A stretch of DNA of 64,000 bases from Candidatus Hodarchaeota archaeon (GTDB lineage: Archaea; Asgardarchaeota; Lokiarchaeia; Sigyniarchaeales; SOKP01). Location: assembly GCA_048886685.1 (NCBI GenBank), contig JBHLKM010000009.1, forward strand, positions 96,001 through 160,000, given 5' to 3'. Made by a program: the position numbers and the translations under genes. The notes below the pieces were generated by a model. It searched no databases and was not told where the DNA came from. It saw only the letters and a program-made list of their open reading frames with translations. Below are positions 3,140 through 48,043 of the stretch, one piece after another. Position 1 is the stretch's first letter; every line of letters starts with the position of its first letter.

Positions 3140-3215
3140 GCGTTACTTATAATGGAAGGTGATATATAAAGTCAATAGAATACGGTTTTGGACAAAATTG
3201 GATTTGTTCTTTAGC

Positions 3216-31860: not shown

Positions 31861-33351
31861 TTGCATTGTATGATCAAATCTGTCTTAATTGCAAATCGTG
31901 GAGAGATTGCAGTTAGGGTCATTCGAGCCTGCCGGTCAAAAGACATTCAATCAATTGCGGTTTTTTCTGACACAGACAAAAATTCTCTCCATGTAAAAAT
32001 GGCAGATGAGGCTTACAACTTAGGGAATGAATCGGTTCAGAGCACTTATCTTAACATTCCAAAGCTGATTGAAGTAATTGAACGATCTAAAGCTGACGCA
32101 GTTCACCCAGGATATGGTTTTTTAAGTGAAAATGCAGAATTTGTTAGAAGAGTTACTAACCTTGGCAAAATCTTTATTGGACCAAGCCCAAGTACCATTG
32201 ATTTCCTCGGTAATAAGATTAAAGCAAAAATACTTGCAAAAAAGGTCAATTTGCCTGTTTTACCTGGTTCAGAAGGATTTATTAATAGTTTAGATGAAGC
32301 TAAATCAGTAGCAGATGAGATTGGATATCCGATAATAATTAAGGCTGCTTTTGGAGGAGGTGGTCGAGGAATGGAAATTGTTGAATCTGAGGAAAATATG
32401 GGTACTGCGTTAGAGAGCTGCCAATCAATGGGATTAAAGTTTTTTGGAAGAAAAGAAGTTTTTATTGAAAAGTCAATTACAGCACCTCGCCATGTAGAAA
32501 TTCAATTTATAGGAGATAATTTTGGTAATGTTGTCCATTTAGGAGATCGGGAATGCACTATTCAACGATCTCACCAAAAGCTTATTGAGGAAGCCCCTTC
32601 CTTCTTAACAAGAGATGAAATTACCAATTTAGGTGAAAGAACTTGTTTTTTGGCTCGTGAATTAAATTACTCAAATGTTGGGACGGCAGAATTTCTTTGG
32701 AAGGATGGTAACATCTACTTTAATGAAGTAAATCCAAGAATCCAAGTGGAGCATGTCGTTACAGAAATGGTTACTGGAATAGATTTGGTTGAAGAACAAA
32801 TAAACATTGCTTCGAACAAACTATTAAACTTTACTCAAGAGGAGATTTCATTACATGGACATGCAATAGAGTATAGGATAAATGCTGAAGATCCCCATAA
32901 CTCATTCTTTCCTCAACATGGAAAAATAACAAATTTAATAATTCCGGGAGGCCCAAAAGTACGTTTTGATAGCTATTTATACCCTAATTACGTTGTCCCT
33001 CATGATTTTGATTCATTAATAGGAAAACTAGTCGTATGGGGAAGGAATCGTAAAAGAGCAATCAACCTTTCTAAACATGCTCTTAAAGAATTAGTTATCT
33101 CAGGAATAAAGACGAATTTAGATATGCATAAAGTAATAGTTGAGACTTATGAGTTTAAAAAAGGTGAATTATCAACTGATTTCTTAAACAAAACAAATAT
33201 TACTCATAATTTAAAAGATTTAGAGAGAAAGAAATTAGCAGCAGTATTTCAATTGGTTAAACAATTTAATTTTTCAATTCAACCTGAAAAAAAACATAAG
33301 AAAAAATCTAATAAATGGCGAGATATCGCAAAAATAGAGCAATTAAGTTAA
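31861..33351 (+). CDS. accC: Biotin carboxylase subunit of acetyl/propionyl-CoA carboxylase
   Basis: VLIANRGEIA, HPGYGFLSEN, GGGGRGM, RECTIQR.HQKL, EVNPRIQVEH. Confidence 0.93.
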   Translation: MHCMIKSVLIANRGEIAVRVIRACRSKDIQSIAVFSDTDKNSLHVKMADEAYNLGNESVQSTYLNIPKLIEVIERSKADAVHPGYGFLSENAEFVRRVTNLGKIFIGPSPSTIDFLGNKIKAKILAKKVNLPVLPGSEGFINSLDEAKSVADEIGYPIIIKAAFGGGGRGMEIVESEENMGTALESCQSMGLKFFGRKEVFIEKSITAPRHVEIQFIGDNFGNVVHLGDRECTIQRSHQKLIEEAPSFLTRDEITNLGERTCFLARELNYSNVGTAEFLWKDGNIYFNEVNPRIQVEHVVTEMVTGIDLVEEQINIASNKLLNFTQEEISLHGHAIEYRINAEDPHNSFFPQHGKITNLIIPGGPKVRFDSYLYPNYVVPHDFDSLIGKLVVWGRNRKRAINLSKHALKELVISGIKTNLDMHKVIVETYEFKKGELSTDFLNKTNITHNLKDLERKKLAAVFQLVKQFNFSIQPEKKHKKKSNKWRDIAKIEQLS

Positions 33352-33387
33352 AAAGAGAAAAAATACCTAATAAAGAGATTGTTATCA

Positions 33388-33903
33388 TTATAAAACAACA
33401 TAATTTTCTTTCCCTTTTACTGTGGATACACTTTCAATTTTAACTAGCGGTTGATCTTGACCAACATCATCTTCTACATTTACAAAGATTTGCATTATTT
33501 TTCCTTTAATTGGGGATAATATCCGATTTTTCATTTTCATTGCCTCTAATATCAACAATAATTGATCCTTTTCAACAAATTCTTGTTCTTCAATATGGAT
33601 TTCCAAAATCTTTCCAGGAATGGGAGCATTTACGGTTTCTTCTTTAACTTGTGGATTTTCATTGTTACTATCTAAAGATTTTAAATAAGGTTTAATTTCA
33701 ATATCGATTTCTTCACCCTCTAAATATAGTACTCCATTGATATATTCCAAATTAAACTGACAATCTTCAAATGTTACTCGAAATAAATTTTCTGTTTCCT
33801 GAATAACTAAAGGAGTATAGATGTGGTCATCAACTTTTATTTTTCCATCATCTATCGGTCGAACAACATAAGTTCTTCCTCGGAATTTTACTTTTTTCAG
33901 CAT
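33388..33903 (-). CDS. accB: Biotin carboxyl carrier protein
   Basis: APIPG...LEAMKM biotinyl-Lys motif. Confidence 0.9.
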   Translation of the reverse strand: MLKKVKFRGRTYVVRPIDDGKIKVDDHIYTPLVIQETENLFRVTFEDCQFNLEYINGVLYLEGEEIDIEIKPYLKSLDSNNENPQVKEETVNAPIPGKILEIHIEEQEFVEKDQLLLILEAMKMKNRILSPIKGKIMQIFVNVEDDVGQDQPLVKIESVSTVKGKENYVVL

Positions 33904-33916
33904 ACTTGTTATCTTT

Positions 33917-34720
33917 TTAACTTGTTCTTATTGTTTTTACTAGATGAGAATCAAAGAAATCAATAAGATTTTCACACATTTGTTGAAAATGATTTTCATC
34001 TGTAAAGTTATGGTTAGCTCCATCAATTATATCAATTTTTTTATTTTCAGATTGAACCTTATTGAAAAGTTGGTGAAAACCATGTTCTGGAAATAAGACA
34101 TCCTTATTACCAGCGATTAAATAAAATGGTTTTAATAACTTATCAGCTAATCTAACAGGATTATATTGTCTCGTTTGTTCAGCATACTTTATTTTAAGAT
34201 CGCCATCTGGAAATCGCATTTCTTTATTGCGCGTTAAAGCTTTTATGAAAAACTTAAACAAGGGATTTTTTGGTATAATTTCAGTATTAAAAACAGGGGA
34301 ACGTATCGCAAGACATTGAACTCTTTTATCTCTTACAGCATGGCAAAAAGCCATTGCACCTCCAAAACTTTCACCTAACAAGCCAATTCTAAGAGGATCT
34401 ATTTCGGGATGATAGACTAATTGATTTATCACTTGTTCAATATTAGCTTGAGCATCATAATAAGTAAATATCCCCGTACTACCTCTAACACCTTGATGAT
34501 CATAAGTAAAATATGCTATATTATTATTAACAAAATGACATGCAAATCTCAGTTCATCTTCTTTAGGTGATTTTCCTGGCATTCCATTAACACGTATTAC
34601 TAATGGGAAACAAGTGTTTTTAGAGTTTTCAGGCTCTATAATATCAGGTAAATACAGGATACTCTGTAGGATTTCAGTACGAACCTCAATTTCTATCATT
34701 TCCTTTCTCATTAGTATCAC
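33917..34720 (-). CDS. Alpha/beta-hydrolase, candidate thioesterase/release enzyme
   Basis: GESFGG nucleophile, AGNKD Asp, GANHNF His; overlaps the megasynthase stop codon. Confidence 0.8.
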   Translation of the reverse strand: MILMRKEMIEIEVRTEILQSILYLPDIIEPENSKNTCFPLVIRVNGMPGKSPKEDELRFACHFVNNNIAYFTYDHQGVRGSTGIFTYYDAQANIEQVINQLVYHPEIDPLRIGLLGESFGGAMAFCHAVRDKRVQCLAIRSPVFNTEIIPKNPLFKFFIKALTRNKEMRFPDGDLKIKYAEQTRQYNPVRLADKLLKPFYLIAGNKDVLFPEHGFHQLFNKVQSENKKIDIIDGANHNFTDENHFQQMCENLIDFFDSHLVKTIRTS

Positions 34721-37700
34721 TGGATTATTGGTTTGTTTTTAAAAGGTTTAATCTCACAGTACGAAAGAACATATTTTTCAGAAAATTCAACCCGTAATTG
34801 TAGATCTTTAAGATTTCTATTGATGTCTAACAAGTCATTTTTGGATTTTAAGGTAAATTTATTGTATTTTTTATTATATTTCAATTCAATGTCTCGGAAA
34901 TTAATATTAAAGCCTTCCCCTATTGCTTTTGAGAAGGCTTCTTTCGCTGTCCAGTAGATTGTTCCCAGATAGGCATCGTCTAAAATAGTTTTTCTTTCTG
35001 ATTCAGTAAATACCTCCTTATAGAATGATGGGGATCGGGATTCAATTATCTCTAAATCAATGCCAACCAAATTTTTACTTATCATTGCTACTGAAAAATC
35101 ATTGGAATGACTTATAGAAAGATTAAGTGGAATTATTTTATTCTCTTTGTTTGAGTAGTAATATGGCTTACCTTTTTCATCCTTTTGAATTTCAAAGTCA
35201 TGATATGAACCATCAACAGCAATAATCCTACGATAACATTCTTTTGCGGCAATAATGCCAGAAAAATATTCAATTTTTCTTTTTATATTCCTAAAGCGCT
35301 TTGAGTTTTCTATCTCTGTTTCAGTCAGATAAGTTTCAAAAAATTTCGGATTTATTTGATATAGATCTTTTAGTTTTGCAATAGGTAGAACTTGAATTTC
35401 GTTTTTAATTTTATTATTCTTTAGGTGGTAATACTCTTTTAAGGTAGTTAGATAATCAGAGAGGTTATTTGAGAGGTTTACTGTAATTTGTGCATGGATG
35501 ATTTCTAGGTTTTCAATTTTCGCTATAATTTCTTGATCTTCATCTAAAATTACCGAGTTATAATAAGATCTCTCCTCGTCTTTTTTTAAGAATTTAGCTA
35601 CTATGTATTTTGGTCTTTGGTTTGATTTTATTTGAATAGAGGAGGCTTTTGAGGGAAGAGAGAGATGGTTATTTATGATGTAATCAAATAACGCTGCGGT
35701 TTGAAATACACATTCCATGGATAAGGGTTCAAATTGAAAATGATCCTCTTCCTCATTATTAATAATAGGAACTGTTGGAAGATCGATCTTTGTTACTATT
35801 TTTCCTTTCTCTAATTGAATAACTTCTTCTAGAACTTGAAATTTCTTCCCATGAAAGAAAAGCTCATAAATTTCAGTTTTATCAAGTAAAGGAATTAATG
35901 GATTTAAAATTAGATCTTTTTCCCATCTCATTTCTTTTACTAAATCATCGAACTGAGCATCGAAATGGTTTTTTATTAGTGGTTTTCCTTTTAGAACTGT
36001 GGGAAAAGTCTTTGATTGAAGTGATATCTTATTATTGGATTTATTAAATGTTAGTTCTACTTCTACTGACTTACCTACTGAAATTTTCAGGGGCGTGTGA
36101 AAATTAATATTTGAAATAGAGGTTAACACCTTATCGAACACTCGATGGTAGAATTCTGCGAATGTTTCTAGAGCCATTACACCAGGAAATACAGGTTTTT
36201 TTTGAATTTGATGATCAAGAAGATATGTGTCGAATTCAGAATTTATGGTGTTAAAACCAATTATATATTCAGATTGATAATTTATTTTTTCTAACATAGG
36301 ATATTCTTTTTTATCAATAACTTCCTCAATATCAAGCATTTCCTCAAAGATCCCTAACTTCCCCGCAATTATATATTCCCCAGTGAAGTTGTTTAATACT
36401 AAATTGGTAAATATCTTTATACCAGTTATTGAAGGAACAGGTGAAACTCCTGCTTGAGTAAGGATTTGTAAAGTGGAACCTTGAGTAGCCATACCAATAT
36501 CTGCCCAAGCTGTCCAATCAAAAGTTAAAAATGGGATATTGCGTTGGTTGAATTCCCAAGCCATACGCGATAAATACGCATTAGCAAATGCATAATCAAT
36601 TTGACCCTGATTCCCATAACGTCCAGCAATTGAGGAAAAAGTTACAAAATATTTGACGTCTTGAATCTTTATATATTTGAGAATTTTTGAAAACCCTCCA
36701 ACTTTAACATCAACAATTTTATGAGCCATATTTAAATTTTTCTTCAAGAAACTTTTTGATTCTTCTATCCCAGCACCATGGATAACAACTGTTATCTGAT
36801 TTTTAGTTTCTTCATTAATTGTTTGGAAGATGTTCTTCATTTTTTCATCATTAGTAACGTCTACTGCATAATATTGAACTGAAAGACCTTTTTTCTTCAA
36901 ATTTTCGATATTACGAAGAGTATCTAATTTGTCGAGGAATTTCTTCCATTCTCTGTTAATCATAACAGGAGTTACTTTCTCTAGTGTAGATTTCAATGAC
37001 TTAACCAATTCTTCCTTTTTCTCACTCAACATGTCCGGGGTGTATTGTAAATATTCTAAAAATGAATCATCGTACGGGCTTAATCCTAAAAGAATTAGTT
37101 GTGGTTTAGTATGGTTTGTTAATTCATCAATACAAGCAAAAGTTATTCCTTGTGCTCCTCCTGTAACCAATAATACATCTTCTTCTGTTATCGAAGAATA
37201 ATTCAATTTTGGGAGCTTTTCTACTTTTTTTCTTAATAATGTATAACGTACATTTTCCCTGTAGGCTATTTCCTCAAGTTTATCCCAACTCAAGAACTCT
37301 TGAGTAATCTGTCCTAAATTCATTGAAGAAATAAGCTTGATCGGAATCTGAAATTCGCGATTGATTGTTTTTATAAAAGCACCTATACTAGAAGCAAGGG
37401 GATTAGCTCCTTGTTTCCAACCGAAAGTAGTATCTGGAGAAATAACTAAGATTTTTTCTAATATTGATAAATTTAAAGATTGAAAAATGAGAAAAAGACT
37501 GTCGAAAATGTTTAAACTATCATTAATGGTATATTGACTATTATCTGGAATAACCAATATGAGTATCTTGAAATCTATATCAAATGGAAATTCACTATTA
37601 TTATTATTTAGATCTTTAACTAAATTTTCATTAACATCAACATTGAAAATTTGAACATTTAATCCAAAATTTTCAAAATCTTTGCTTAAGTTTTTGTAAT

Positions 37701-40700
37701 TTGATAATCCTGAGTTAATGTTAAGAATTAATGTATTAATATCCTTGTATTTCAGATTTTCCTTCGAGGGGAGCAATTTAAAAACTCGGGAAGGAACTAC
37801 TTTTGACACATAAATTTGGTCATCATTTTCATTTTCTGATTTTTCTTTTACCTCGCTGATATTTTTGACAGGTTCTAATTCCATATCAACTGATTGCGAT
37901 TTTTTATTGATGAACTGGATTACAAATTCAGTGATCTCATTAGGCGTACGGATGTCAGCTATGTTAATTTCAACATTATCTTCTAGTTTGTAATATTCAC
38001 GCAAGACTCCAAAGATTTCTGCTTGCTTTACTGTATCAATCCCCAAGTCTTCTTCCAAATCATAAGAATCATCGATATCAGTAAGGTCATAACCAGTTTT
38101 GTCAGCAATAATTTTTTTTACTAAATTTTTTACCTGATTTATATCATCAATTTCATTAGATTTTAATACAATACTTTGCTGTTTAATGCTAATATCTGTT
38201 TCCATATTCTGGTCATTTAAGAATTCTCGCATTTTAAGAATTATATTCTTAATACTGCCAAGTCCTACCAAATTTATTTCTGTGTCCTCTGAGATTTTCA
38301 AATCATTCCGAAGTTCTCCAAAAATCTCCGCTTGTTTGACAGTATCAATACCTAAATCCTCTTCTAAATCAAACTCAGGATCGATATCTTCAATATCGTA
38401 TCCTGTCTTTTTAGAAATGATTTCAATTAACTTATTTTCAAGTGATTTATTATCTAAACCCGAGGAACTATTACTAGAAACAATATCATGACCTAAAGAC
38501 TCATTGAGCATGTGAACGATATCATTTATAGTGCGATAGTCTGCTATATTGAATGAATCATCAATTTCAATTTTCCATTTTTCTCGGATTTCTCCGAAAA
38601 TCTCTGCTTGTTTGACAGTATCAATTCCAAGATCTTCCTCCAAATCATAGGTTTCTTCAATGTCTTCTGGATTATAACCGGTCTTTAAAGCGATGATTTT
38701 TTTGATCTCAACTATCATATCGATTTTACCAACCGAAATTGATTGCTGAGGGATTTCTGTTTCTTTTGGTGATTGAATTGTAGTAATTATAGCAGAAATA
38801 CGTTCTGTATTCATCTTTAAGACTCTACCATCCATGAATACTTGTGTCCCGCTCCCACCTACATTTTGAAGCCATTGTTCATAGTTTGGTTTGGTAAAAC
38901 GATTATCATATGATACTAAACGGAATAAGACAATGGCTAATTGTGAACCGAATCCAGCGGCAAAACGTAAAGCATATTTCTTTCGTTCTCTTACTCCTTT
39001 TGAAAAGTTGAAATTTGAATAGTTTGAATCTATCTTATTAAAATTCGCTATCGGGGGAATTTTTCCTTTCTCCATTGATTTAATTGCCACAGCTTCTTCA
39101 ATACCTGCACCCATCGCATGACCAGTATATCCCTTCGTATTAATTATAATCATATCATAAGCATTTTTACCAAATGTATTTTCTAATGCTCTTAATTCTG
39201 ATTCCGCACTTCCACCTCGAGCAGGGGAATAAGTTTCATGACTTACAAACATCCCTTCATTAGCCAATTCTCTTTTACTAATACCATGTACTTTTTCCAT
39301 CTTTAAAATAAAATCGTTAAGTCTTTGGGAAATATCATCCTTATCTAATCGTGTACCATGATAAGCGCTATTCCCAAAATAAGAACCAAGAATTTCTACA
39401 ATTGGTTTTACTCCTCGAGCTTCAGCTTCGGAATTTTGTTCAATAACAAATGCACTTGCTCCTGCACCTAATACAATTCCATTCCTTCCTTCTCCAAAGG
39501 GAAGTACTGCTTCCTCCCATCGAGATTTTGTTGTAGCGGCTCCACTTGCAATAAATCCTGCACCAATCCATTGAAAAAGGTTCTTACTTGTTACATTATC
39601 GGCAGTGATTACAACAACTCGTTTACATCTCCCAGTTCGAATCCAGTCTTCTGCAATACCTATTGCTTGAGGTGCAGAAGCACAAGCTGCATTAATAGAT
39701 GTATTTGGTCCTTTAGCTTTTATTAATTGAGCAAATTGAGAATGTCCCATAGATAAAACTCTAAATAAAAATGAGCGATTAAAATTTTCTACACTTTCCT
39801 CACTAGAATTTAATTGATTGAATTTAAAATTAGAGCACTGTTGAGAATCTTCTGCAAAATTATCGTATCCTGGAAATGCAGATGCAAAAATGATACCTGT
39901 ATCATCTTGTAATGATTCTGGTAAAGCCCAGTCACCAGATAATGTCTTACCCGTAGAGGTTTTAATAGTGCTACGAACTAATGGAATTCCCGCGTCTTTA
40001 AGTGCATCATATCCTGCACAAATTGCTAGTTGGAATGTAGTATCTAAAGCATTTAGGATTTTAGGATTAAGTTGATAATCCTCTGTCGGGTTAAAATCCC
40101 CCATCTGTCCTGCCAAGTGAATTACTTTAGAAATATCATCTATAGGCACAAATTTAGCATTACCATTAGGGGATTTTTCCAAACGAATTATATTTTTTTG
40201 ATATAATTGTTCTTGAAATTCACTACTTACCGATTCGATTAGATTAACTCCATCTAAAATATCATCGATATTTTTATCATCAAAAATTTTACGATTTTTG
40301 CCAGGAAGTCCAATACCTACACCAGTGATTACGACAGGTGTAGAATTAAGCAGTGATCCTTTCTTATCATATTTATTTTCAATTGAAATATGATATTTCT
40401 TAAGATAATTATGAAATCCTTGAATCATAACCGAAGACAAAAGTTCTTTTTGTTCTTCTAGAAATTCATTAAAAAATGGAAGTTGCTTTAATTTAGATAA
40501 GTCTTCATTCGAAATTAAAGAATTTTGATTTTTTTCAAGTGTAGGGGATTTTTTCGATATTTTTGGTTTTTGATCTGGAATAGCTGGTGGTTGAGTTTTG
40601 ATTTCATCAATGGGGCTAGCTGATTTTATACTACTGAACTTCTCAAAAATCTTTTGAATATGCTCTTCTTCAGAAGATTTTGGTGAAAGTGTAAAATCAA

Positions 40701-43700
40701 CCTCAATATCTTTATATTTTTTTAATATATCTTTTGTAAAAAAGAAGAGAGCCTTTTTTGGTCCGATTTCTATAAATTTTCGGCCCCCATTTTGATAAAT
40801 ATTCAAAATCTCATCAACCCATCTAACAGGGGATGTAATTTGCTTAAGAAGGATTGATTTTATTTTGTCAGGATTATCAGGATATATTTTGCCTGTTACA
40901 TTACTAAATACAGGTATTCTAGGAGATTTAAATTCTATTGTTTTCAAAAAGCTTTCCAATTTTTCTTCAGCGTGAGTGACAAATTTAGAATGAAATGCAT
41001 TTGACACGTTTAATTTTAGAGCTCGAATTTCTTTTTCTGAAAATACTTTCACTACAGATTCAACTGCCGATAACTCTCCTGATATGACCGTTTGAGATGT
41101 AGAGTTATAATTTGATATTGAAACATCATCAATTGATAGCTCATCTAAAGTTTTCTCAACAACTTCCGGTGATATAAATATCGCCGCCATAGAACATTGA
41201 ACACCAAGAGGTAACTTTGACATTGCTTCTCCCCTTTTGATTACAATTTTTAACCCATCTTCAAAACTCAATACTCCTGCTGTAGTTAAAGCCACGAATT
41301 CCCCTAAGCTATGACCTCCAACAATTCCCGGAGTTAAATCTTTAGTTTTAAAAAGTTGCAATAGAGCCATTTCAACTGAATAAATAGCCGGTTGAGTGAA
41401 CTCCGTTTGTTGTAATCTATTGGAATTTTCTTCTTGTGATAAATTTGGAGATCCAAAAATTACTTCTAGTAGGTCAAAACCACCAAAATCTTTACATATA
41501 TCGTTTGCTTTATCAAGTGTATCTTTGACGACTTGGAACTTTTCGTATAATTCCCTTGACATCCCTACATATTGACTTCCTTGACCACTAAAAAGAAAAC
41601 ATAAATCGGTTGAATACGGAGTACTCAAATGATCAAGTTGAGGTTCAAAATGATCATACATATGTTCTTCACATAGAGGATACGATCTAGCTTTTTCTAT
41701 CGATGATATCTCGTAGGATTGAGGTAAGAATTCTTCGAGGATTACATGATAATTTGCCCCTCCAAATCCGAATGATGAAACACCGGCTCTTCTTATTCCT
41801 GTTTTGGGAGTTAACCACTCAATTGGTTCCGTATTAACATAATAAGGAGCCGTATCCCAATTTATTGTGGGATTAAGAGTTGAAATGTTAATAGATGGAG
41901 GAATAATTTTATTATGTAATGCTAATACTGTTTTAATAATACCAGCTATACCTGCAGCACTTTTGAGGTGTCCAATTTGACTTTTTATTGACCCAATTGC
42001 TAGTTTTTGCTTTTCATTTCTTTCAGAAAACACATCGTCTAGCACATTTAATTCAGTAGCATCTCCAACGACTGTAGATGTTCCATGGCATTCAAGATAT
42101 TGAATGTCTGATGGGCTTATATTACTATTCTTTAAAGCCCGTAATATGGCTAATTTTTGTCCATCTGGATTGGGTGCAGTAATGCCCTTACCTTTTCCAT
42201 CTGAAGAACCCCCATACCCCATAATAATCGCATAAATTTTGTTCTCATCACGTAATGCATCTTCAAGGCGTTTTAAAACTAAAAATCCAGCTCCTTCTCC
42301 CATAACAAACCCGTTAGCACGAGCATCAAAGGGATATGAGCCATCTTCAGACAAAGCACCAATTTTACAGAATTTAATGTATGTTTGAGGATCCATTGAA
42401 CTATCGACCCCCCCTACAAGGACTGTATCATAATCCTTAACTAGTAACCCATTAACAGCTGTATCAATTGCGGCTAAACTAGAAGCACAAGCAGCATCAA
42501 TTGTCATGCTTTTACCAGTTAAATTAAACACGTTTGCGACTCTACCAGCAATTATGTTTGACAATTCACCTGGCATAGTATCTTCGTTAATCACTGGAAT
42601 TTGATTAATTATTTTATCTTCAAGGAAATTTAGAAGATTATTTTTTTCTTCTTTCTTCAGAATCATCAGAGAGCTTGCTTCATTGATTCTATATTTGATT
42701 TCATTAAAAAGTATACGTTTATTGCTGAGACGTTGTTTATCTCCCCCTAAGGAGTTTCCAACGATAATTGCAATGGGCAAACGTTTTTTCCCGTCAAAAG
42801 GATACCCCGCATCAAGAAGTGCTTCTTTTGCTGTAATAATAGCCCATATCTGAACTAAGTCCATCCTTTCTGCCATTTTTGGAGGAATTCGATATTTAAT
42901 AGATTTAAATTCAAATTTTTTCACAAATCCACCAATTTTTGTATATGATTTATCGGGGGATGAATGATCTTTATCATAAAAGATTTCAGGTTCCCATCTG
43001 TCTATGGGAACTTCTGTAATCGAATAATTTTTATTCACAATATTTTTCCAGAATTGTGGAATGTCCTCAGCATCTGGAAAGAGACCTCCTAAGCCAATGA
43101 TGGCTATTTTATTTACTATGGACAACTTTTTTTGTGATTTTTTATCCTTTTCCATTATTACTTGACCTAAAGAATCTTTTATTGTTTGATTCGATATTTT
43201 TTTGATAAATTTGTAACCCCCTTCAATTATATCATAATGTATTTGGGGGATTGTTCTAATTGTATTTTGTAAGGAAATAGAATCACCTGTCATAAATGCA
43301 CCTTTAACTACTTGGTCTTTTACTGAGATCGAAGTAAATTGGGACTTCTCGCTCCCTTCTATATGATTATCATTCCAAATCTCAGCTCTGGAAGCTATTC
43401 TTAGTGCACCTAAATTGTCTTTCTCATACAATTCTTTTCTTTGCGAAATAGAAATACCTTGCGCTTTTCGCAAAAATTCTTGCTTAATAGTGTGATGGGA
43501 AAATTCGGTAGAGATTACCCTTGCTCGAGTATTTACAGTTGTGCCAATCACTTTTGTAGATGAATTATTAAGTAATAATTCTTGATAAACTGGGGATAAA
43601 GCTCTAGTTGTCACAATTTCTTCGCTTAAGAGGTAAGCAGTTCCCATTTGAATACCAGGATTTATAATATCTAAATGATTTCCAATCATACCTCCCAACA

Positions 43701-45288
43701 TAGCTGAACTTACTTCATCAATAATCCCACCAGCAAAAATAACATTTAATTTCTCGGTGAATATATCTTTTTCCTTATCCAAATATTCTAAAATACACTC
43801 CCAAAGAATGAAAGATGATAATGTTCCAAAATGACCTCCACACTCACTACCTTCTAATATCATATAATCGAGGTTACTTTTTATGGCTTTTTTAAACATA
43901 GAAAGCACAGGTGTGTGTATTAAGACCTTATTGCCTAAATTCTTAACTTGAACACCAAGATCAATAGTACCAGCGGCAATTAAGGTGATTTCGGGACCAT
44001 ACTTTTTAATACATCTAAGATGTTCATCCCTACGAGTCTTTACAGCTTCTAAACCTATAATACCACAACCGTATGGCTTCTTTGATAAATCTTTCACACT
44101 AATGTTTGATAAGAGTTCAACTGTTTCAGTTGATAATAATCCACCTAAAGCTAATATTGGAAGGGCACCATTATCTGCTACTTTTCTAGCAAATTCTAAT
44201 TTATCAGAGATATTCGCCATTGGCCCTTGAATAATGGGATATGTAATGTTTAGTTGTTTCGCAAATTCAGAATTTTTGGCAAAAGGCCAATGTTCTATAC
44301 TATTTTGAATCTGATTAGAGATTATTTTAACTAAATCATTTAGAAATTTTTTTAAATCGCCGAACTTGGCTAAAATATAGTTCGCAAAACAAATACCATG
44401 ATCACTTGGTAAAAAAGAATGGTTGGGCTCTGTATCAGAATATATATGACAATGATTTTGAAATTTGGTAATTCTATGAAGAAATTCATGTTTGAGAGTA
44501 AAATAATCATTGTTAAATTCTTCATTTAATTTTGAAAAATCTTTTTGCTCAACTTCCTTTATTGATCGAATTGATTTATTAGCCAATTTTCCAATCAAAC
44601 GATAATTATATCGTAAAGTTTCATGTACAAGATAAAAATCATTCTCTTCAATTGTCTTAATATAATTTTTAAATTTTTGATTTAAAGGACATTCAGGTAG
44701 CAAGAATAACTGACTTTCTAATACGATTCCTAAAGTCCCACCAATAAATGCTGAACATATGTTATATACCCCAAAACCTCCCTGAATTATGAATGGAAGA
44801 CCTGCTTTTTGGAATTCTTGAATGAGTATAAAAGTATTTTTAGTTCCGACTAAACCACCTGCTTCATTCCCTTTAACAAGAAAAAAGTCTGCCCATTCCG
44901 CGGTTTCATAAGCTTCTTCTAAGTATAACACTTCGGAAAGAATTAATTTTGAATTTTTCTGCATTATAAGAATTTCCTTATAATTTGGAGAGAATGCACA
45001 GATGATAATTGGAATTAGTTCTTGAAATTCGAGTGCATAAAGGACTTCTTGAGAAGAAATCCGGATACCCCATATGTGATCAGAAGATAAAGATGATTTT
45101 AATTTATTAAAAAGTATTTTACATTGATCAATATTAAGTCCTTCAAAATCTACTAAACCAATTCCCCCGGTCTGGCATATTTGAACTGAAAGTGAAGGAT
45201 CTGTTATACCTTTTGGTGAATAACCCCAAATAGGAATTCTGTTTTTTAAAATTTGCTGGATATTCTTTTTCTTTTTCATAAAAATCAA
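34717..45288 (-). CDS. Single-chain iterative type I PKS/fatty acid synthase (Pfa-like): ER-like, ER, KS, AT, KS, ACP, ACP, ACP, KR, DH, PPTase
   Basis: FabK/PfaD-like barrel (PIIQGPM, EGSECGGH, FAGGI, QMGTAYL); KS1 (DAACASS, HGTST, IGHLK); AT (FSGQGSQ, GHSLGE, NAFHS); KS2 (NAACASA, HETYS, TGHAMG); 3x DLGIDTVKQAE; KR (VTGGAQGIT, GQIDYAFAN); DH (LLDHQIQKKPVFPG); Sfp-type PPTase (GKP, SISHS, VGIDLE, WTAKEAFSK). Confidence 0.93.
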   Translation of the reverse strand: MIFMKKKKNIQQILKNRIPIWGYSPKGITDPSLSVQICQTGGIGLVDFEGLNIDQCKILFNKLKSSLSSDHIWGIRISSQEVLYALEFQELIPIIICAFSPNYKEILIMQKNSKLILSEVLYLEEAYETAEWADFFLVKGNEAGGLVGTKNTFILIQEFQKAGLPFIIQGGFGVYNICSAFIGGTLGIVLESQLFLLPECPLNQKFKNYIKTIEENDFYLVHETLRYNYRLIGKLANKSIRSIKEVEQKDFSKLNEEFNNDYFTLKHEFLHRITKFQNHCHIYSDTEPNHSFLPSDHGICFANYILAKFGDLKKFLNDLVKIISNQIQNSIEHWPFAKNSEFAKQLNITYPIIQGPMANISDKLEFARKVADNGALPILALGGLLSTETVELLSNISVKDLSKKPYGCGIIGLEAVKTRRDEHLRCIKKYGPEITLIAAGTIDLGVQVKNLGNKVLIHTPVLSMFKKAIKSNLDYMILEGSECGGHFGTLSSFILWECILEYLDKEKDIFTEKLNVIFAGGIIDEVSSAMLGGMIGNHLDIINPGIQMGTAYLLSEEIVTTRALSPVYQELLLNNSSTKVIGTTVNTRARVISTEFSHHTIKQEFLRKAQGISISQRKELYEKDNLGALRIASRAEIWNDNHIEGSEKSQFTSISVKDQVVKGAFMTGDSISLQNTIRTIPQIHYDIIEGGYKFIKKISNQTIKDSLGQVIMEKDKKSQKKLSIVNKIAIIGLGGLFPDAEDIPQFWKNIVNKNYSITEVPIDRWEPEIFYDKDHSSPDKSYTKIGGFVKKFEFKSIKYRIPPKMAERMDLVQIWAIITAKEALLDAGYPFDGKKRLPIAIIVGNSLGGDKQRLSNKRILFNEIKYRINEASSLMILKKEEKNNLLNFLEDKIINQIPVINEDTMPGELSNIIAGRVANVFNLTGKSMTIDAACASSLAAIDTAVNGLLVKDYDTVLVGGVDSSMDPQTYIKFCKIGALSEDGSYPFDARANGFVMGEGAGFLVLKRLEDALRDENKIYAIIMGYGGSSDGKGKGITAPNPDGQKLAILRALKNSNISPSDIQYLECHGTSTVVGDATELNVLDDVFSERNEKQKLAIGSIKSQIGHLKSAAGIAGIIKTVLALHNKIIPPSINISTLNPTINWDTAPYYVNTEPIEWLTPKTGIRRAGVSSFGFGGANYHVILEEFLPQSYEISSIEKARSYPLCEEHMYDHFEPQLDHLSTPYSTDLCFLFSGQGSQYVGMSRELYEKFQVVKDTLDKANDICKDFGGFDLLEVIFGSPNLSQEENSNRLQQTEFTQPAIYSVEMALLQLFKTKDLTPGIVGGHSLGEFVALTTAGVLSFEDGLKIVIKRGEAMSKLPLGVQCSMAAIFISPEVVEKTLDELSIDDVSISNYNSTSQTVISGELSAVESVVKVFSEKEIRALKLNVSNAFHSKFVTHAEEKLESFLKTIEFKSPRIPVFSNVTGKIYPDNPDKIKSILLKQITSPVRWVDEILNIYQNGGRKFIEIGPKKALFFFTKDILKKYKDIEVDFTLSPKSSEEEHIQKIFEKFSSIKSASPIDEIKTQPPAIPDQKPKISKKSPTLEKNQNSLISNEDLSKLKQLPFFNEFLEEQKELLSSVMIQGFHNYLKKYHISIENKYDKKGSLLNSTPVVITGVGIGLPGKNRKIFDDKNIDDILDGVNLIESVSSEFQEQLYQKNIIRLEKSPNGNAKFVPIDDISKVIHLAGQMGDFNPTEDYQLNPKILNALDTTFQLAICAGYDALKDAGIPLVRSTIKTSTGKTLSGDWALPESLQDDTGIIFASAFPGYDNFAEDSQQCSNFKFNQLNSSEESVENFNRSFLFRVLSMGHSQFAQLIKAKGPNTSINAACASAPQAIGIAEDWIRTGRCKRVVVITADNVTSKNLFQWIGAGFIASGAATTKSRWEEAVLPFGEGRNGIVLGAGASAFVIEQNSEAEARGVKPIVEILGSYFGNSAYHGTRLDKDDISQRLNDFILKMEKVHGISKRELANEGMFVSHETYSPARGGSAESELRALENTFGKNAYDMIIINTKGYTGHAMGAGIEEAVAIKSMEKGKIPPIANFNKIDSNYSNFNFSKGVRERKKYALRFAAGFGSQLAIVLFRLVSYDNRFTKPNYEQWLQNVGGSGTQVFMDGRVLKMNTERISAIITTIQSPKETEIPQQSISVGKIDMIVEIKKIIALKTGYNPEDIEETYDLEEDLGIDTVKQAEIFGEIREKWKIEIDDSFNIADYRTINDIVHMLNESLGHDIVSSNSSSGLDNKSLENKLIEIISKKTGYDIEDIDPEFDLEEDLGIDTVKQAEIFGELRNDLKISEDTEINLVGLGSIKNIILKMREFLNDQNMETDISIKQQSIVLKSNEIDDINQVKNLVKKIIADKTGYDLTDIDDSYDLEEDLGIDTVKQAEIFGVLREYYKLEDNVEINIADIRTPNEITEFVIQFINKKSQSVDMELEPVKNISEVKEKSENENDDQIYVSKVVPSRVFKLLPSKENLKYKDINTLILNINSGLSNYKNLSKDFENFGLNVQIFNVDVNENLVKDLNNNNSEFPFDIDFKILILVIPDNSQYTINDSLNIFDSLFLIFQSLNLSILEKILVISPDTTFGWKQGANPLASSIGAFIKTINREFQIPIKLISSMNLGQITQEFLSWDKLEEIAYRENVRYTLLRKKVEKLPKLNYSSITEEDVLLVTGGAQGITFACIDELTNHTKPQLILLGLSPYDDSFLEYLQYTPDMLSEKKEELVKSLKSTLEKVTPVMINREWKKFLDKLDTLRNIENLKKKGLSVQYYAVDVTNDEKMKNIFQTINEETKNQITVVIHGAGIEESKSFLKKNLNMAHKIVDVKVGGFSKILKYIKIQDVKYFVTFSSIAGRYGNQGQIDYAFANAYLSRMAWEFNQRNIPFLTFDWTAWADIGMATQGSTLQILTQAGVSPVPSITGIKIFTNLVLNNFTGEYIIAGKLGIFEEMLDIEEVIDKKEYPMLEKINYQSEYIIGFNTINSEFDTYLLDHQIQKKPVFPGVMALETFAEFYHRVFDKVLTSISNINFHTPLKISVGKSVEVELTFNKSNNKISLQSKTFPTVLKGKPLIKNHFDAQFDDLVKEMRWEKDLILNPLIPLLDKTEIYELFFHGKKFQVLEEVIQLEKGKIVTKIDLPTVPIINNEEEDHFQFEPLSMECVFQTAALFDYIINNHLSLPSKASSIQIKSNQRPKYIVAKFLKKDEERSYYNSVILDEDQEIIAKIENLEIIHAQITVNLSNNLSDYLTTLKEYYHLKNNKIKNEIQVLPIAKLKDLYQINPKFFETYLTETEIENSKRFRNIKRKIEYFSGIIAAKECYRRIIAVDGSYHDFEIQKDEKGKPYYYSNKENKIIPLNLSISHSNDFSVAMISKNLVGIDLEIIESRSPSFYKEVFTESERKTILDDAYLGTIYWTAKEAFSKAIGEGFNINFRDIELKYNKKYNKFTLKSKNDLLDINRNLKDLQLRVEFSEKYVLSYCEIKPFKNKPIIQ
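37915..38720 (-). repeat. Three tandem ACP domains within the megasynthase
   Basis: KTGY.......DLEEDLGIDTVKQAEIFG repeated three times; boundaries approximate. Confidence 0.9.
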
Positions 45289-46872: not shown

Positions 46873-47287
46873 AATAATCCCATATTTATTTAAATAAACA
46901 AGTAATTATTTTTATCAAAAGTTAATTTATAAAATTATTACTTGAAGACACACTATTATTAGTATTACGGGTTTGACCATATATTATTAAAAATTCTTCT
47001 TTTTTTTAATAAACCTATAATCGAGATTTTTATGAGAAGATAATTAATAATTTATTGAATTAATAAACTAATTTCAGATTTTAATATAATTTAATTCAAT
47101 TTCTAAATTTGAACGTTTATAAATTTTCAATTAACTTATATAGTAAGACTTTTTTCGAGAATTATCCATTTTTTTATTTTTTGAATTAATTTAATAAAAA
47201 ATCAGACAATAAATTTGAAAACAATTTATATTAACCCGTGTATTTATTTTATTAATCTCTCTTTTAAGCAGCAGATTAGAATAAAAT

Positions 47288-48043
47288 ATGTTCTTAAAAA
47301 TAAAGATTGTTCACATTGACGAAACTAAATCTACCCAAGACAGTATAACCGAATACCTTAAAAATGATTACTATTCGTCACTATTGTTAGTTGCGAAAAC
47401 GCAAACAAAAGGTCGTGGAAGAAAACAAGATGACTGGCATTCTCCAGAGGGAGGATTTTGGGCAACTCTGGGATTAACCACTTCATTAACTTTGAATGAA
47501 TCACAATTAGCTTTGTTCCACTATTTTACAGCAACATTATTATCACGAATTATTAAGGAAGAATATGATTTACAAGTTCAAATTAAGTGGCCTAATGACA
47601 TATTATATGAAAATAGAAAACTAGCAGGAATCTTAATCGATTATGTAATATGTTCCCAAGAAAATTATATACTGATTGGAACGGGAGTAAATTTAAATAA
47701 TTCAAGTAATGAGATGCCGGAAAGTTTAAAATCATCAGCAATTTCAATAAAAGATATATTACATAAACCAGTATCAATTGATACTTTTGCTCTAAAAATT
47801 TGTTTTTATGCAAACGAATATTATTCACCAATTATAGAATGTAATCAAAAAAAAATTCTAGATTTAATTCAAGAATATAATCAAAACTCTCGAATTTTCG
47901 GTAAAGATGCTATTCTTGATGATTTACAAAAATATTATTGCCATGGAATTAATAAAGAAGGATTATTGCAATTTTCGAATAAAAACTCAAAGTTAAATTT
48001 AAAAATTGATGATTTAACAAGGATAAAAAAGATAATTTTCTGA
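47288..48043 (+). CDS. birA: Biotin--protein ligase (no HTH domain)
   Basis: STQD, QTKGRGR, W.SPEGG, KWPND, KLAGIL. Confidence 0.93.
   Translation: MFLKIKIVHIDETKSTQDSITEYLKNDYYSSLLLVAKTQTKGRGRKQDDWHSPEGGFWATLGLTTSLTLNESQLALFHYFTATLLSRIIKEEYDLQVQIKWPNDILYENRKLAGILIDYVICSQENYILIGTGVNLNNSSNEMPESLKSSAISIKDILHKPVSIDTFALKICFYANEYYSPIIECNQKKILDLIQEYNQNSRIFGKDAILDDLQKYYCHGINKEGLLQFSNKNSKLNLKIDDLTRIKKIIF

What the first reader, a model, noticed from the sequence alone, without database searches (positions are those of the whole stretch)
37915..38720. All three ACP domains have Thr instead of the invariant phosphopantetheine Ser
Seen: each ACP reads DLGIDTVKQAE (Thr2224, Thr2316, Thr2419; codons ACT 38617-19, ACT 38341-43, ACA 38032-34). 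Three diverged copies using two different Thr codons argue against sequencing error or decay. Known: carrier proteins are modified on the Ser of a (L)GxDS motif, LGIDS in Pfa synthases. Inference: either phosphopantetheinylation on threonine by the fused PPTase, which would be unusual chemistry, or non-covalent/CoA-based carrier function. I recall similar GIDTVKQ motifs in some uncharacterised bacterial synthases, so this may be a wider overlooked family.
Basis: partly seen in the sequence, partly recalled or inferred. Interest (0 to 1): 0.87.

Follow-up and report, generated by a model that had tools for sequence, protein, structure and literature searches.

The report
Threonine-type acyl carrier domains, Asgard megasynthase
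All three carrier domains of a giant, self-priming fatty-acid/polyketide synthase in an Asgard archaeon have threonine where studied carrier proteins have the serine that holds the phosphopantetheine arm; the same swap is fixed across a very large bacterial and archaeal enzyme family, which points to an undescribed, still unproven threonine-linked form of a textbook cofactor attachment.

Summary
A 3523-aa ORF (34717-45288, minus strand) reads ER-ER-KS-AT-KS2-ACPx3-KR-DH-PPTase. Each ACP has LGIDTVKQAEIF, with Thr2224, Thr2316 and Thr2419 (ACT, ACT, ACA) at the position that aligns with the phosphopantetheine Ser of solved ACPs. In the model this Thr is the first residue of helix II.

It is not decay. 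The repeats are only 57-61% identical in DNA. Thr fills this position in 595 of 598 ACPs from the 120 best homologues, in 347 of 347 ACPs found by a KS-AT-seeded search blind to the motif (Roseiflexus included), and in 297 of 304 genomic motif matches using all four Thr codons. Every exception is Ser. No other Ser or Cys column is conserved.

This genome and five other Asgard genomes have no carrier domain or PPTase outside this ORF. The fused PPTase keeps every catalytic motif.

Best reading (about 0.6): the cognate PPTase attaches phosphopantetheine to the Thr hydroxyl. This is unproven. E. coli ACP S36T is reported as unmodifiable, and I found no paper describing a Thr acceptor.

The family includes the uncharacterised 'Type R' Pfa-like synthases of Shulse and Allen (2011). 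Earlier reports of this scan noted the same swap in other Asgard genomes.

The parts
34717..45288 (-). Megasynthase ORF, 3523 aa from TTG (likely true start ATG at 45279): ER-ER-KS-AT-KS2-ACP-ACP-ACP-KR-DH-PPTase
   Evidence: Catalytic motifs intact: DAACASS 931, CHGTST 1067, GHLKSAAG 1106, GHSLG 1325, TGGAQGI 2709, YAFAN 2899. Best NCBIfam match is PfaA TIGR02813, 907 bits, below its cut-off of 1010.
43189..45288 (-). N-terminal enoyl-reductase region, NMO/FabK/PfaD-like, apparently two copies (residues about 1-700)
   Evidence: Pfam NMO, 3 stretches; TIGR03151 FabK-type match at 341-697
41884..43113 (-). Ketosynthase KS1 (residues 726-1135)
   Evidence: Pfam ketoacyl-synt and Ketoacyl-synt_C; Cys-His-His motifs
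40699..41598 (-). Malonyl/acyl transferase (residues 1231-1530), GHSLG
   Evidence: Pfam Acyl_transf_1; TIGR00128 fabD-like, 243.8 bits
38917..40335 (-). Second KS-like domain in the 'CLF' position (about 1652-2124); keeps NAACAS Cys and two His motifs
   Evidence: Second ketoacyl-synt stretch and ACP_syn_III match at 1865-1900; motif positions
38491..38721 (-). ACP1 (residues 2190-2266), Thr2224 codon ACT at 38617-38619
38215..38445 (-). ACP2 (residues 2282-2358), Thr2316 codon ACT at 38341-38343
37906..38136 (-). ACP3 (residues 2385-2461), Thr2419 codon ACA at 38032-38034
36499..37173 (-). Ketoreductase (residues 2706-2930)
   Evidence: Pfam KR; motifs
35503..36249 (-). PKS-type dehydratase (residues 3014-3262)
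   Evidence: Pfam PKS_DH_N and PS-DH
34720..35421 (-). Fused two-lobed (Sfp-type) phosphopantetheinyl transferase (residues 3290-3523): GKP 3373, ISHS 3392, GIDLE 3409, WTAKEAFSK 3446
   Evidence: Pfam ACPS and AASDHPPT_N; PDB matches to AcpS and human AASDHPPT; motifs invariant in 40 Thr-ACP-associated PPTases; only PF01648 match in the genome
45301..46872 (-). Acyl-CoA carboxylase carboxyltransferase, directly upstream on the same strand
   Evidence: Pfam Carboxyl_trans, 3.3e-181
33917..34720 (-). Alpha/beta hydrolase; its start overlaps the synthase stop by 4 bases; candidate chain-release thioesterase (inferred)
   Evidence: Pfam Hydrolase_4, Peptidase_S9 and DLH; coordinates
33388..33903 (-). 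Biotin carboxyl carrier protein
   Evidence: Pfam Biotin_lipoyl
31861..33351 (+). Biotin carboxylase
   Evidence: Pfam Biotin_carb_N, CPSase_L_D2 and Biotin_carb_C
47288..48043 (+). Biotin-protein ligase (BirA-like)
   Evidence: Pfam BPL_LplA_LipB

Best explanation
The three domains are working acyl carrier domains of an iterative Pfa-like ('Type R'-like) fatty-acid/polyketide synthase. Their cofactor attachment residue is threonine instead of serine.

Proposed mechanism:
- The C-terminal Sfp-type PPTase domain of the same polypeptide transfers 4'-phosphopantetheine from CoA to the side-chain hydroxyl of Thr2224, Thr2316 and Thr2419. This residue is the first of helix II, where the acceptor Ser sits in known ACPs.
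- The arm's thiol then receives malonyl from the AT domain. Malonyl-CoA comes from the adjacent biotin-dependent carboxylase genes.
- The arm carries the growing chain between KS, KR, DH and ER.
- The overlapping alpha/beta hydrolase releases the product.

Shown here: the Thr sits at the acceptor position. It is under strong, ancient purifying selection across a huge family, and only Ser ever replaces it. The PPTase is catalytically intact and always travels with these ACPs in the Asgard genomes examined. There it has no other possible substrate.

Inferred: the Thr-O-phosphodiester itself, the product, and the reason Thr is preferred. The preference could insulate the ACPs from foreign PPTases or hydrolases, or give a more stable linkage.
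For: 1. Position. The Thr aligns with the modified Ser of solved ACPs. It is the first residue of helix II in a confident model whose fold matches canonical ACPs.

2. Conservation.
- 595 Thr and 3 Ser in 598 ACPs from the 120 best homologues.
- 347 Thr and 0 Ser in 113 synthases chosen by KS-AT similarity alone.
- 297 Thr (ACC 142, ACG 121, ACT 18, ACA 16), 7 Ser and no Arg, Cys or Trp in a codon-neutral genomic motif scan.

3. Only a hydroxyl residue ever substitutes. Ser appears in the same motif context (LGIDSVKQVELF in P0074 and P0105). One synthase with a fused PPTase mixes Ser-, Thr- and Ser-type ACPs (P0135).

4. No alternative acceptor. No other column has Ser above 30%, and there is no conserved Cys.

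5. Closed system. In this genome (100% complete by markers), the only PF01648 match is the fused PPTase and the only PF00550 matches are the three Thr-ACPs. The same holds in five further Asgard genomes of four genera, one of them a single contig. In this family, 75 of 88 genomes at 90% completeness or better have no PPTase at all.

6. PPTase intact. GKP, ISHS, GIDLE and WTAKEAFSK are present and invariant in 40 Thr-ACP-associated PPTases.

7. The nearest PPTase relatives are fused to or adjacent to Thr-ACPs.

8. All other catalytic motifs of the synthase are intact, so it needs a thiol-bearing carrier.

9. Complex prediction of the PPTase with the ACP (CoA and Mg present) gave weak support: score 0.45, best control 0.00. 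The mark was reached by 58 of 80 solved complexes and 2 of 110 mismatched pairs. At 0.60 or under it was reached by only 7 of those 80 and by both mismatches. The runs agree in at least 84% of contacts and the partner's pLDDT is at least 79. Similar PPTase-ACP complexes are solved, so this pass may only reflect likeness.
Against: - No direct evidence of the modification exists here, and none can be obtained with these tools.
- The one experimental precedent found points the other way. E. coli ACP S36T 'cannot be post-translationally modified by 4'-PP' in E. coli and is non-functional (PMC3340395), so a PPTase that accepts Thr would have to differ from AcpS.
- I could not identify a residue or clade that sets these PPTases apart. 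A relative at about 33% identity serves Ser-type ACPs.
- Desulfoluna has no PPTase within 6 kb of its Thr-ACP synthase.
- Two other Thr columns are also highly conserved in the domain: TGY (97% of 554 distinct domains; invariant in the 59-sequence alignment A1) and a Thr before helix IV (93%).
- The literature search covered only the held open-access library.
Confidence: 0.6

Rival explanations
1. The arm, or a related prosthetic group, is attached to a residue other than the helix-II Thr, for example the invariant Thr of the KTGY motif or the conserved Thr before helix IV. In that case the helix-II Thr is structural only.
For: Two other Thr columns are 97% and 93% conserved among 554 distinct domains. 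The KTGY Thr is invariant in the 59-sequence alignment A1.
Against: PPTases of this superfamily act on the residue at the N-terminus of helix II (established for AcpS-ACP and Sfp-PCP complexes). The helix-II Thr sits exactly there. It is exchanged only with Ser. TGY also occurs in a Ser-type ACP, PigH.
Confidence: 0.07
2. The Thr carries a different group from plain phosphopantetheine, for example a CoA-derived variant. Citrate-lyase and malonate-decarboxylase carriers use a phosphoribosyl-dephospho-CoA arm. The donor or linkage would differ from the textbook one.
For: The unusual acceptor and the strictly conserved DTVKQ(A/V)E context leave room for altered chemistry. Nothing here fixes the donor.
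Against: The associated enzyme is an ordinary ACPS-superfamily PPTase with the CoA/Mg motifs intact. No CitG/CitX-type genes are among the six flanking ORFs I annotated.
Confidence: 0.1
3. The carrier domains stay unmodified and work without a covalent arm. They might dock free CoA thioesters non-covalently, or serve only as scaffolds while the catalytic domains use acyl-CoA directly, in line with the ACP-independent fatty-acid synthesis proposed for archaea.
For: Most archaea lack ACP and PPTase: 75 of 88 genomes of this family have no PPTase. E. coli ACP S36T is not modified.
Against: A catalytically intact PPTase is fused to or adjacent to these synthases in archaea and in most bacterial loci examined. 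In six Asgard genomes it has no other substrate. Tandem ACPs under strong purifying selection, with only Ser ever replacing the Thr, are hard to explain without an acceptor role.
Confidence: 0.12
4. The ACPs are dead relics, meaning a decaying or inactive gene cluster or an assembly artefact.
For: None beyond the missing Ser.
Against: The 3523-aa frame is open with all catalytic motifs intact. There is synonymous turnover between the repeats. The same Thr occurs in hundreds of species with all four codons.
Confidence: 0.02

Closest known systems
'Type R' secondary-lipid (Pfa-like) synthase cluster of Shulse and Allen 2011 (PMC3098273): Koribacter, Solibacter, Elusimicrobium, Roseiflexus
   Same: The architecture is KS-MAT-CLF-ACP(3-6)-KR with a dedicated PPTase, and acetyl-CoA carboxylase genes are often in the cluster. 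Roseiflexus sp. synthases found by KS-AT similarity have only Thr-ACPs. A Roseiflexus locus reads synthase-PPTase-CT-BC-BCCP, the same accessory set as in this window.
   Different: Here the ER domains and the PPTase are fused into a single 3523-aa polypeptide, and the host is an Asgard archaeon. The paper never mentions the Thr: 'threonine' and 'serine' each occur 0 times in its text. The product of Type R is uncharacterised. I did not place the Asgard KS in a tree.
PfaA tandem ACP domains of bacterial PUFA synthases with PPTase PfaE (NCBIfam TIGR02813)
   Same: PfaA is the best NCBIfam match. Both have tandem ACPs between AT and KR and a near-identical motif frame, LGID-x-(I/V)K. Both are iterative Pfa-type synthases with a PfaD-like ER.
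   Different: The score of 907 bits is below the PfaA cut-off of 1010. The acceptor is Thr, not Ser. A second KS-like domain sits before the ACPs. ER and PPTase are fused.
E. coli AcpP S36T with AcpS
   Same: The same Ser-to-Thr exchange at the acceptor position of an ACP.
   Different: In E. coli the mutant is reported as unmodifiable and non-functional (PMC3340395). Here Thr is the conserved wild-type state and comes with its own PPTase.
Sfp-type (two-lobed) phosphopantetheinyl transferases, e.g. human AASDHPPT (PDB 2cg5), and AcpS (1f7l, 3hyk)
   Same: The ACPS fold and motifs GKP, (I/L)SHS, G(I/V)D(L/I)E and W(T/S)xKE(A/S)xxK are present. The N-lobe aligns with AcpS and the C-lobe with AASDHPPT.
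   Different: It is fused to its synthase. Its only available substrates carry Thr. Identity to solved PPTases is low, and no Thr-specific determinant was identified.
Enediyne PKSE-type self-phosphopantetheinylating iterative PKS (KS-AT-ACP-KR-DH-PPTase); recalled from the literature, not tested here
   Same: The same C-terminal order ACP-KR-DH-PPTase, and the same principle of a synthase that primes its own carrier.
   Different: PKSE has a single Ser-type ACP and no ER.

Membership tests
Acyl carrier protein / PP-binding domain (Pfam PF00550) | Profile score above Pfam's gathering cut-off | tested here: met
   31.5, 25.1 and 25.3 bits against 20.8
Acyl carrier protein / PP-binding domain (Pfam PF00550) | Helical-bundle ACP fold with the acceptor residue at the N-terminus of helix II | tested here: met
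   AF2 pLDDT 88.9; helix II starts at the Thr; Foldseek TM 0.78-0.85 to solved ACPs
Acyl carrier protein / PP-binding domain (Pfam PF00550) | Serine acceptor in the (D/E)-L-G-x-D-S motif | tested here: not met
   Thr in all three domains and in about 99% of family members
Acyl carrier protein / PP-binding domain (Pfam PF00550) | Carries 4'-phosphopantetheine (holo form) | not testable with these tools
   Needs mass spectrometry of the expressed protein
PfaA, polyketide-type PUFA synthase subunit (NCBIfam TIGR02813) | Whole-protein score above the curated cut-off | tested here: not met
   907.3 bits against a cut-off of 1010.1
PfaA, polyketide-type PUFA synthase subunit (NCBIfam TIGR02813) | Domain order KS-MAT-ACP(n)-KR with tandem ACPs | tested here: inconclusive
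   Tandem ACPs and KS, AT and KR are present, but a second KS-like domain lies between AT and the ACPs, and ER and PPTase are fused
'Type R' secondary lipid synthase (Shulse and Allen 2011) | pfaA homologue with KS-MAT-CLF-ACP(3-6)-KR | tested here: met
   KS 726-1135, AT 1231-1530, KS-like about 1652-2124, three ACPs, KR 2706-2930; definition from PMC3098273
'Type R' secondary lipid synthase (Shulse and Allen 2011) | Dedicated PPTase directly downstream | tested here: met
   Present as a C-terminal fusion; a separate downstream gene in Roseiflexus and Lewinellaceae
'Type R' secondary lipid synthase (Shulse and Allen 2011) | KS domain falls in the Type R clade of the KS tree | not tested
   No tree was built. 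Indirect only: Roseiflexus synthases share the Thr-ACP motif and cluster content.
Sfp-type PPTase (PF01648 ACPS plus PF22624 N-lobe) | Two ACPS-like lobes with Mg/CoA-binding and catalytic motifs | tested here: met
   PF01648 at 69.7 bits, over its cut-off of 25. The N-lobe family PF22624 scores 26.8 bits, just under its cut-off of 27, but the N-lobe aligns with solved AcpS chains. Motifs GKP, ISHS, GIDLE and WTAKEAFSK are present and invariant in alignment A2.
Sfp-type PPTase (PF01648 ACPS plus PF22624 N-lobe) | Transfers Ppant from CoA to a carrier Ser | not testable with these tools
   The only carriers in the genome have Thr. Activity needs an assay.

The most novel reading that the evidence does not exclude
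O-phosphopantetheinyl-threonine is a real, widespread post-translational modification. A large family of iterative Pfa-like synthases, spread over more than ten bacterial phyla, Asgard archaea, Poseidoniales and Thermoplasmatota, uses Thr-linked carrier domains primed by co-travelling PPTases that accept Thr. This would make the system a self-contained, horizontally portable unit that housekeeping PPTases may not prime, as AcpS does not prime E. coli ACP S36T. In Asgard archaea, which otherwise lack ACP and PPTase, it would supply a complete ACP-dependent fatty-acyl synthesis line. That bears on the origin of eukaryote-type fatty-acyl membrane lipids.
Probability: 0.5. Interest if true: 0.88.

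Novelty: new variant of a known kind. Interest (0 to 1): 0.8.

Why it matters
Attachment of phosphopantetheine to a conserved serine is taught as universal for fatty-acid, polyketide and non-ribosomal peptide synthesis, and motif rules and annotation tools assume it. A Thr acceptor in thousands of synthases would extend that rule.

- **PPTase specificity.** It would imply PPTases with a different acceptor specificity. These could serve as orthogonal tagging enzymes alongside Sfp and AcpS.
- **An uncharacterised family.** It may help explain why this large family, including the Type R clusters known since 2011 in cultured Roseiflexus, Koribacter and Elusimicrobium, remains uncharacterised. Expression in hosts that rely on AcpS or Sfp could yield apo-enzyme.
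- **Asgard lipid biology.** The gene gives some lineages a complete, self-primed, malonyl-CoA-fed acyl-chain synthase in a domain of life thought to lack ACP systems. That is directly relevant to the 'lipid divide' question in eukaryogenesis.

Tried and rejected
- **Literature.** The motif string GIDTVKQ is in no paper. Other motif strings gave only unrelated hits. Searches for a threonine acceptor, for Asgard with PKS or ACP, and for Type R organisms found no paper on a Thr acceptor or on an Asgard megasynthase. Two hits on a 'DST motif' concern a Thr after the Ser, not the acceptor.
- **A different conserved Ser or Cys as acceptor.** Rejected; no such column exists.
- **A distinct PPTase clade.** Not resolved. 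All 12 long representatives that hold both a PPTase domain and ACP domains have Thr-type ACPs (one, P0135, is mixed Ser-Thr-Ser). Two stand-alone near relatives sit next to Thr-ACPs. Many contigs were too short to judge. One relative at rank about 147 sits in a Ser-type trans-AT PKS cluster. I had too few Ser-labelled PPTases to build a meaningful tree.
- **Ser versions of the motif.** In Streptomyces and Corallococcus these belong to other architectures (AT-ACP-ACP and ACP-ACP-SDR), not to this synthase type.
- **Discrete small Thr-ACPs.** 1849 small proteins matched and all 120 listed have Thr. Many look like pieces of tandem arrays cut by frameshifts or gene calling, so free-standing Thr-ACPs are not established.
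- **KS2 boundaries.** phmmer of KS1 against the KS2 region found nothing. Boundaries were set by motifs instead.
- **Stand-alone PPTases in Thr-negative genomes of this family.** One lies beside an NRPS-type LGGDS carrier and is unrelated to this system.
Full report
**What is in the sequence.** The finding lies inside one open frame, 34717-45288 on the minus strand. It translates without a stop to 3523 residues from a TTG. An ATG three codons further in gives the 3520-residue form held in the protein collection. Pfam divides it as follows:
- two NMO/FabK/PfaD-like enoyl-reductase stretches at the N-terminus;
- a ketosynthase (726-1135);
- an acyltransferase (1231-1530);
- a second KS-like domain;
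- three PP-binding domains (2194-2461);
- a ketoreductase (2706-2930);
- a PKS dehydratase (3014-3262);
- a C-terminal phosphopantetheinyl transferase (PPTase).

The KS, AT, KR and PPTase catalytic motifs are present. The dehydratase His-Pro motif is present with Lys where Gly usually stands. The best curated family match is PfaA of PUFA synthases (TIGR02813), at 907 bits against a cut-off of 1010. The protein is therefore Pfa-like but not a PfaA by that rule.

**The observation.**
- Each domain on its own passes Pfam's PP-binding threshold.
- phmmer against all PDB chains places the Thr on the phosphopantetheine Ser of PigH ACPs, Aquifex ACP and mycobacterial AcpM.
- An AlphaFold2 model built on 59 family members (pLDDT 88.9) has helix II starting exactly at this Thr.
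- Its best structural matches are canonical ACPs at TM 0.78-0.85.
- The three repeats share only 48-55% of residues and 57-61% of bases. Half of the residues they share are written with different codons.

These are old copies under purifying selection, not an error copied three times.

**Is it this gene only?** No. A search with the ACP block found 3101 proteins. The closest are from Promethearchaeota, Lokiarchaeota and Thorarchaeota genomes, so the window comes from an Asgard archaeon. More distant hits come from Desulfoluna, Saprospiraceae, Caldilineaceae, Woeseiaceae, Spirochaetes and Thermoplasmatota. In the 120 best hits, 595 of 598 ACP domains have Thr at this position and 3 have Ser.

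That search is seeded on short exact words and so favours the motif. I therefore made two checks that do not depend on it.
- **Codon-neutral DNA scan.** A pattern for G-(I/V)-D-x-V-K-Q-(A/V)-E, with the x codon written WSN (Thr, Ser, Arg, Cys, Trp or stop), was run over one genome per prokaryotic species. Those loci held 297 Thr, 7 Ser and nothing else. All four Thr codons were used: ACC 142, ACG 121, ACT 18, ACA 16.
- **KS-AT-seeded search.** A search seeded only on the KS-AT part of a Chloroflexia member returned 115 further synthases. Their ACPs hold 347 Thr and no Ser.

The hosts span Acidobacteriota, Actinomycetota, Chloroflexota, Desulfobacterota, Myxococcota, Elusimicrobiota, Gemmatimonadota, Spirochaetota, Rhodothermales, Poseidoniales, Heimdallarchaeota and Thermoplasmatales. 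Across 554 distinct ACP domains, no other column has Ser above 30% and none has a conserved Cys. A displaced acceptor Ser is therefore not available.

**Link to known clusters.** The KS-AT-seeded hits include several Roseiflexus sp. proteins, all with Thr-only ACPs. Roseiflexus, Koribacter, Solibacter and Elusimicrobium are the members of the 'Type R' secondary-lipid synthase type of Shulse and Allen (2011). That type is defined as KS-MAT-CLF-ACP(3-6)-KR followed by a PPTase gene, has an uncharacterised product and is sometimes linked to acetyl-CoA carboxylase genes (PMC3098273). The paper's text contains neither 'threonine' nor 'serine'.

A Roseiflexus locus reads acyl-CoA dehydrogenase, synthase, PPTase, carboxyltransferase, biotin carboxylase, BCCP. 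A Lewinellaceae locus reads acyl-CoA dehydrogenase, synthase, PPTase. The window has the same accessory set:
- carboxyltransferase directly upstream (45301-46872);
- an alpha/beta hydrolase overlapping the synthase stop by four bases (33917-34720);
- BCCP (33388-33903);
- biotin carboxylase (31861-33351);
- a biotin ligase (47288-48043).

The Asgard gene therefore looks like a Type R-like system in which ER and PPTase have been fused into one polypeptide. I did not build the KS tree that would settle membership.

**Does the Thr carry the arm?** This cannot be shown by computation. The indirect evidence is as follows.
- **Only Ser replaces the Thr.** Ser occurs in the same motif frame (LGIDSVKQVELF, first ACP of two Thermoplasmatota proteins). 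One synthase with a fused PPTase has Ser-, Thr- and Ser-type ACPs side by side (P0135). This is the pattern expected if the hydroxyl is what matters.
- **The PPTase is intact.** GKP, ISHS, GIDLE and WTAKEAFSK are present. The corresponding residues are invariant in an alignment of 40 PPTases that are fused to or adjacent to Thr-ACPs. Its N-lobe aligns with AcpS structures and its C-lobe with human AASDHPPT.
- **The system is closed.** In this genome (4.4 Mb, 100% complete by markers), the only ACPS-family match is this domain and the only PP-binding matches are the three Thr-ACPs. The same holds in five other Asgard genomes from four genera, one of them a single 4.4-Mb contig. Every PPTase and every carrier match lies in the giant frame, and the carrier counts equal the Thr-motif counts.
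- **Most relatives have no PPTase.** Among the 88 genomes of this family that are at least 90% complete, 75 have no PPTase at all. All eight with the Thr motif have one inside the synthase. A conserved PPTase whose only possible substrates carry Thr is the strongest argument here.
- **The nearest PPTase relatives go with Thr-ACPs.** In a word-free search of 1.8 billion representatives, the nearest relatives are fused to Thr-ACP synthases or sit beside them.
- **Complex prediction.** A prediction of the PPTase with the ACP, with CoA and Mg present, gave only weak support: score 0.45, best control 0.00. The mark was reached by 58 of 80 solved complexes and 2 of 110 mismatches. At 0.60 or below it was reached by only 7 of the 80 and by both mismatches. 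The runs agree in at least 84% of contacts and the partner's pLDDT is at least 79. PPTase-ACP complexes are solved, so this may only reflect likeness.

**Against.**
- E. coli ACP S36T is described as a protein that cannot receive 4'-phosphopantetheine and cannot support growth (PMC3340395). It is used as an apo-mimic (PMC13343975). A PPTase that takes Thr would have to differ from AcpS, and I could not point to the difference.
- The PPTase relatives do not fall into a cleanly separate group with the data I could gather. One at about 33% identity lies in a trans-AT PKS cluster with ordinary Ser-ACPs.
- Desulfoluna has no PPTase within 6 kb of its Thr-ACP synthase.
- Ten literature searches in the held library found no description of a Thr acceptor. 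That library is not the whole literature.

**Distribution in Asgard archaea.** The Thr motif is present in 60 of 398 genomes of the phylum, and the reversed-pattern control gave zero everywhere. It is patchy: 9 of 52 genomes in this genus, G000 included, against 27 of 31, 10 of 12 and 7 of 12 in three other families. This fits an accessory, horizontally mobile unit. I did not test transfer.

**Verdict.** Thr-linked phosphopantetheine is the most likely mechanism (about 0.6) but is unproven. The rivals are:
- an unmodified carrier (0.12);
- a different group on the Thr (0.10);
- a different residue as acceptor (0.07);
- a dead cluster (0.02).

I class it as a new variant of a known kind: a Pfa-like, Type R-like self-priming synthase whose carrier domains break the defining Ser rule. 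Earlier reports of this scan reached the same reading on other Asgard genomes. I re-derived every step on this window. I also added the codon-neutral genome scan, the motif-blind KS-AT check that ties the family to Roseiflexus and Type R, and the closed-system test on six genomes.

Noticed in passing
window 38917-40335 (-), residues about 1652-2124: The second KS-like domain, in the position called 'CLF' in Type R clusters, keeps an active-site-like Cys (NAACAS at 1866) and two His motifs (SHETYSP at 2016, GYTGHAMG at 2053). It may be a second working ketosynthase rather than a chain-length factor. phmmer with KS1 does not find it, so it is highly diverged.
   Followed up: partly
window 31861-34720 and 45301-48043: A full biotin-dependent acyl-CoA carboxylase set (carboxyltransferase, BCCP, biotin carboxylase) plus a biotin ligase flanks the synthase. 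A Roseiflexus locus (L136) has the same CT-BC-BCCP set after its synthase and PPTase, so malonyl-CoA supply seems to travel with the cluster across domains of life.
   Followed up: partly
window 33917-34720 (-): An alpha/beta hydrolase starts with GTG 4 bases before the synthase stop, which suggests translational coupling. It is a candidate chain-release thioesterase. Alpha/beta hydrolases also follow the PPTase in two metagenomic Thr-ACP clusters (L125 and one contig listed without DNA).
   Followed up: no
window 45279-45288 (-): The longest frame starts at TTG 45288, but the protein on record (P0002) starts at the ATG three codons downstream. Residue numbers in the finding are therefore 3 higher than in that form.
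   Followed up: yes
Asgard phylum genomes (genome search handles): The Thr-ACP synthase is patchy: 9 of 52 genomes of the window's own genus, but 27 of 31 and 10 of 12 in two other families. This suggests gain and loss or horizontal transfer of a self-contained unit.
   Followed up: partly
L125:1-6745 (metagenomic contig): One cluster combines a synthase with Thr-type ACPs, a stand-alone PPTase, an alpha/beta hydrolase, two KAS III genes, a discrete Ser-type ACP (VGIDSLALVE) and a radical SAM enzyme. Thr- and Ser-type carriers can therefore coexist next to a single PPTase.
   Followed up: no
P0135 (2353 aa, representative library): A single synthase with a fused PPTase carries three ACPs of mixed type: LGIDSIKAAEIM, LGIDTVKQAEIF and LGVDSIKIAEIL. 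It is a natural test case for whether one PPTase serves both acceptor residues.
   Followed up: no
window 35503-36249 (-), DH domain: The dehydratase His motif reads HQIQKKPVFP, with Lys where PKS dehydratases usually have Gly in HxxxGxxxxP. The His and Pro are kept.
   Followed up: no
L134 (G163:C1:78000-97900): A genome of the same archaeal family without the Thr motif has a stand-alone PPTase near a gene with an NRPS-type carrier motif (LGGDSIQGA). Some relatives therefore carry a different, Ser-type carrier system.
   Followed up: partly
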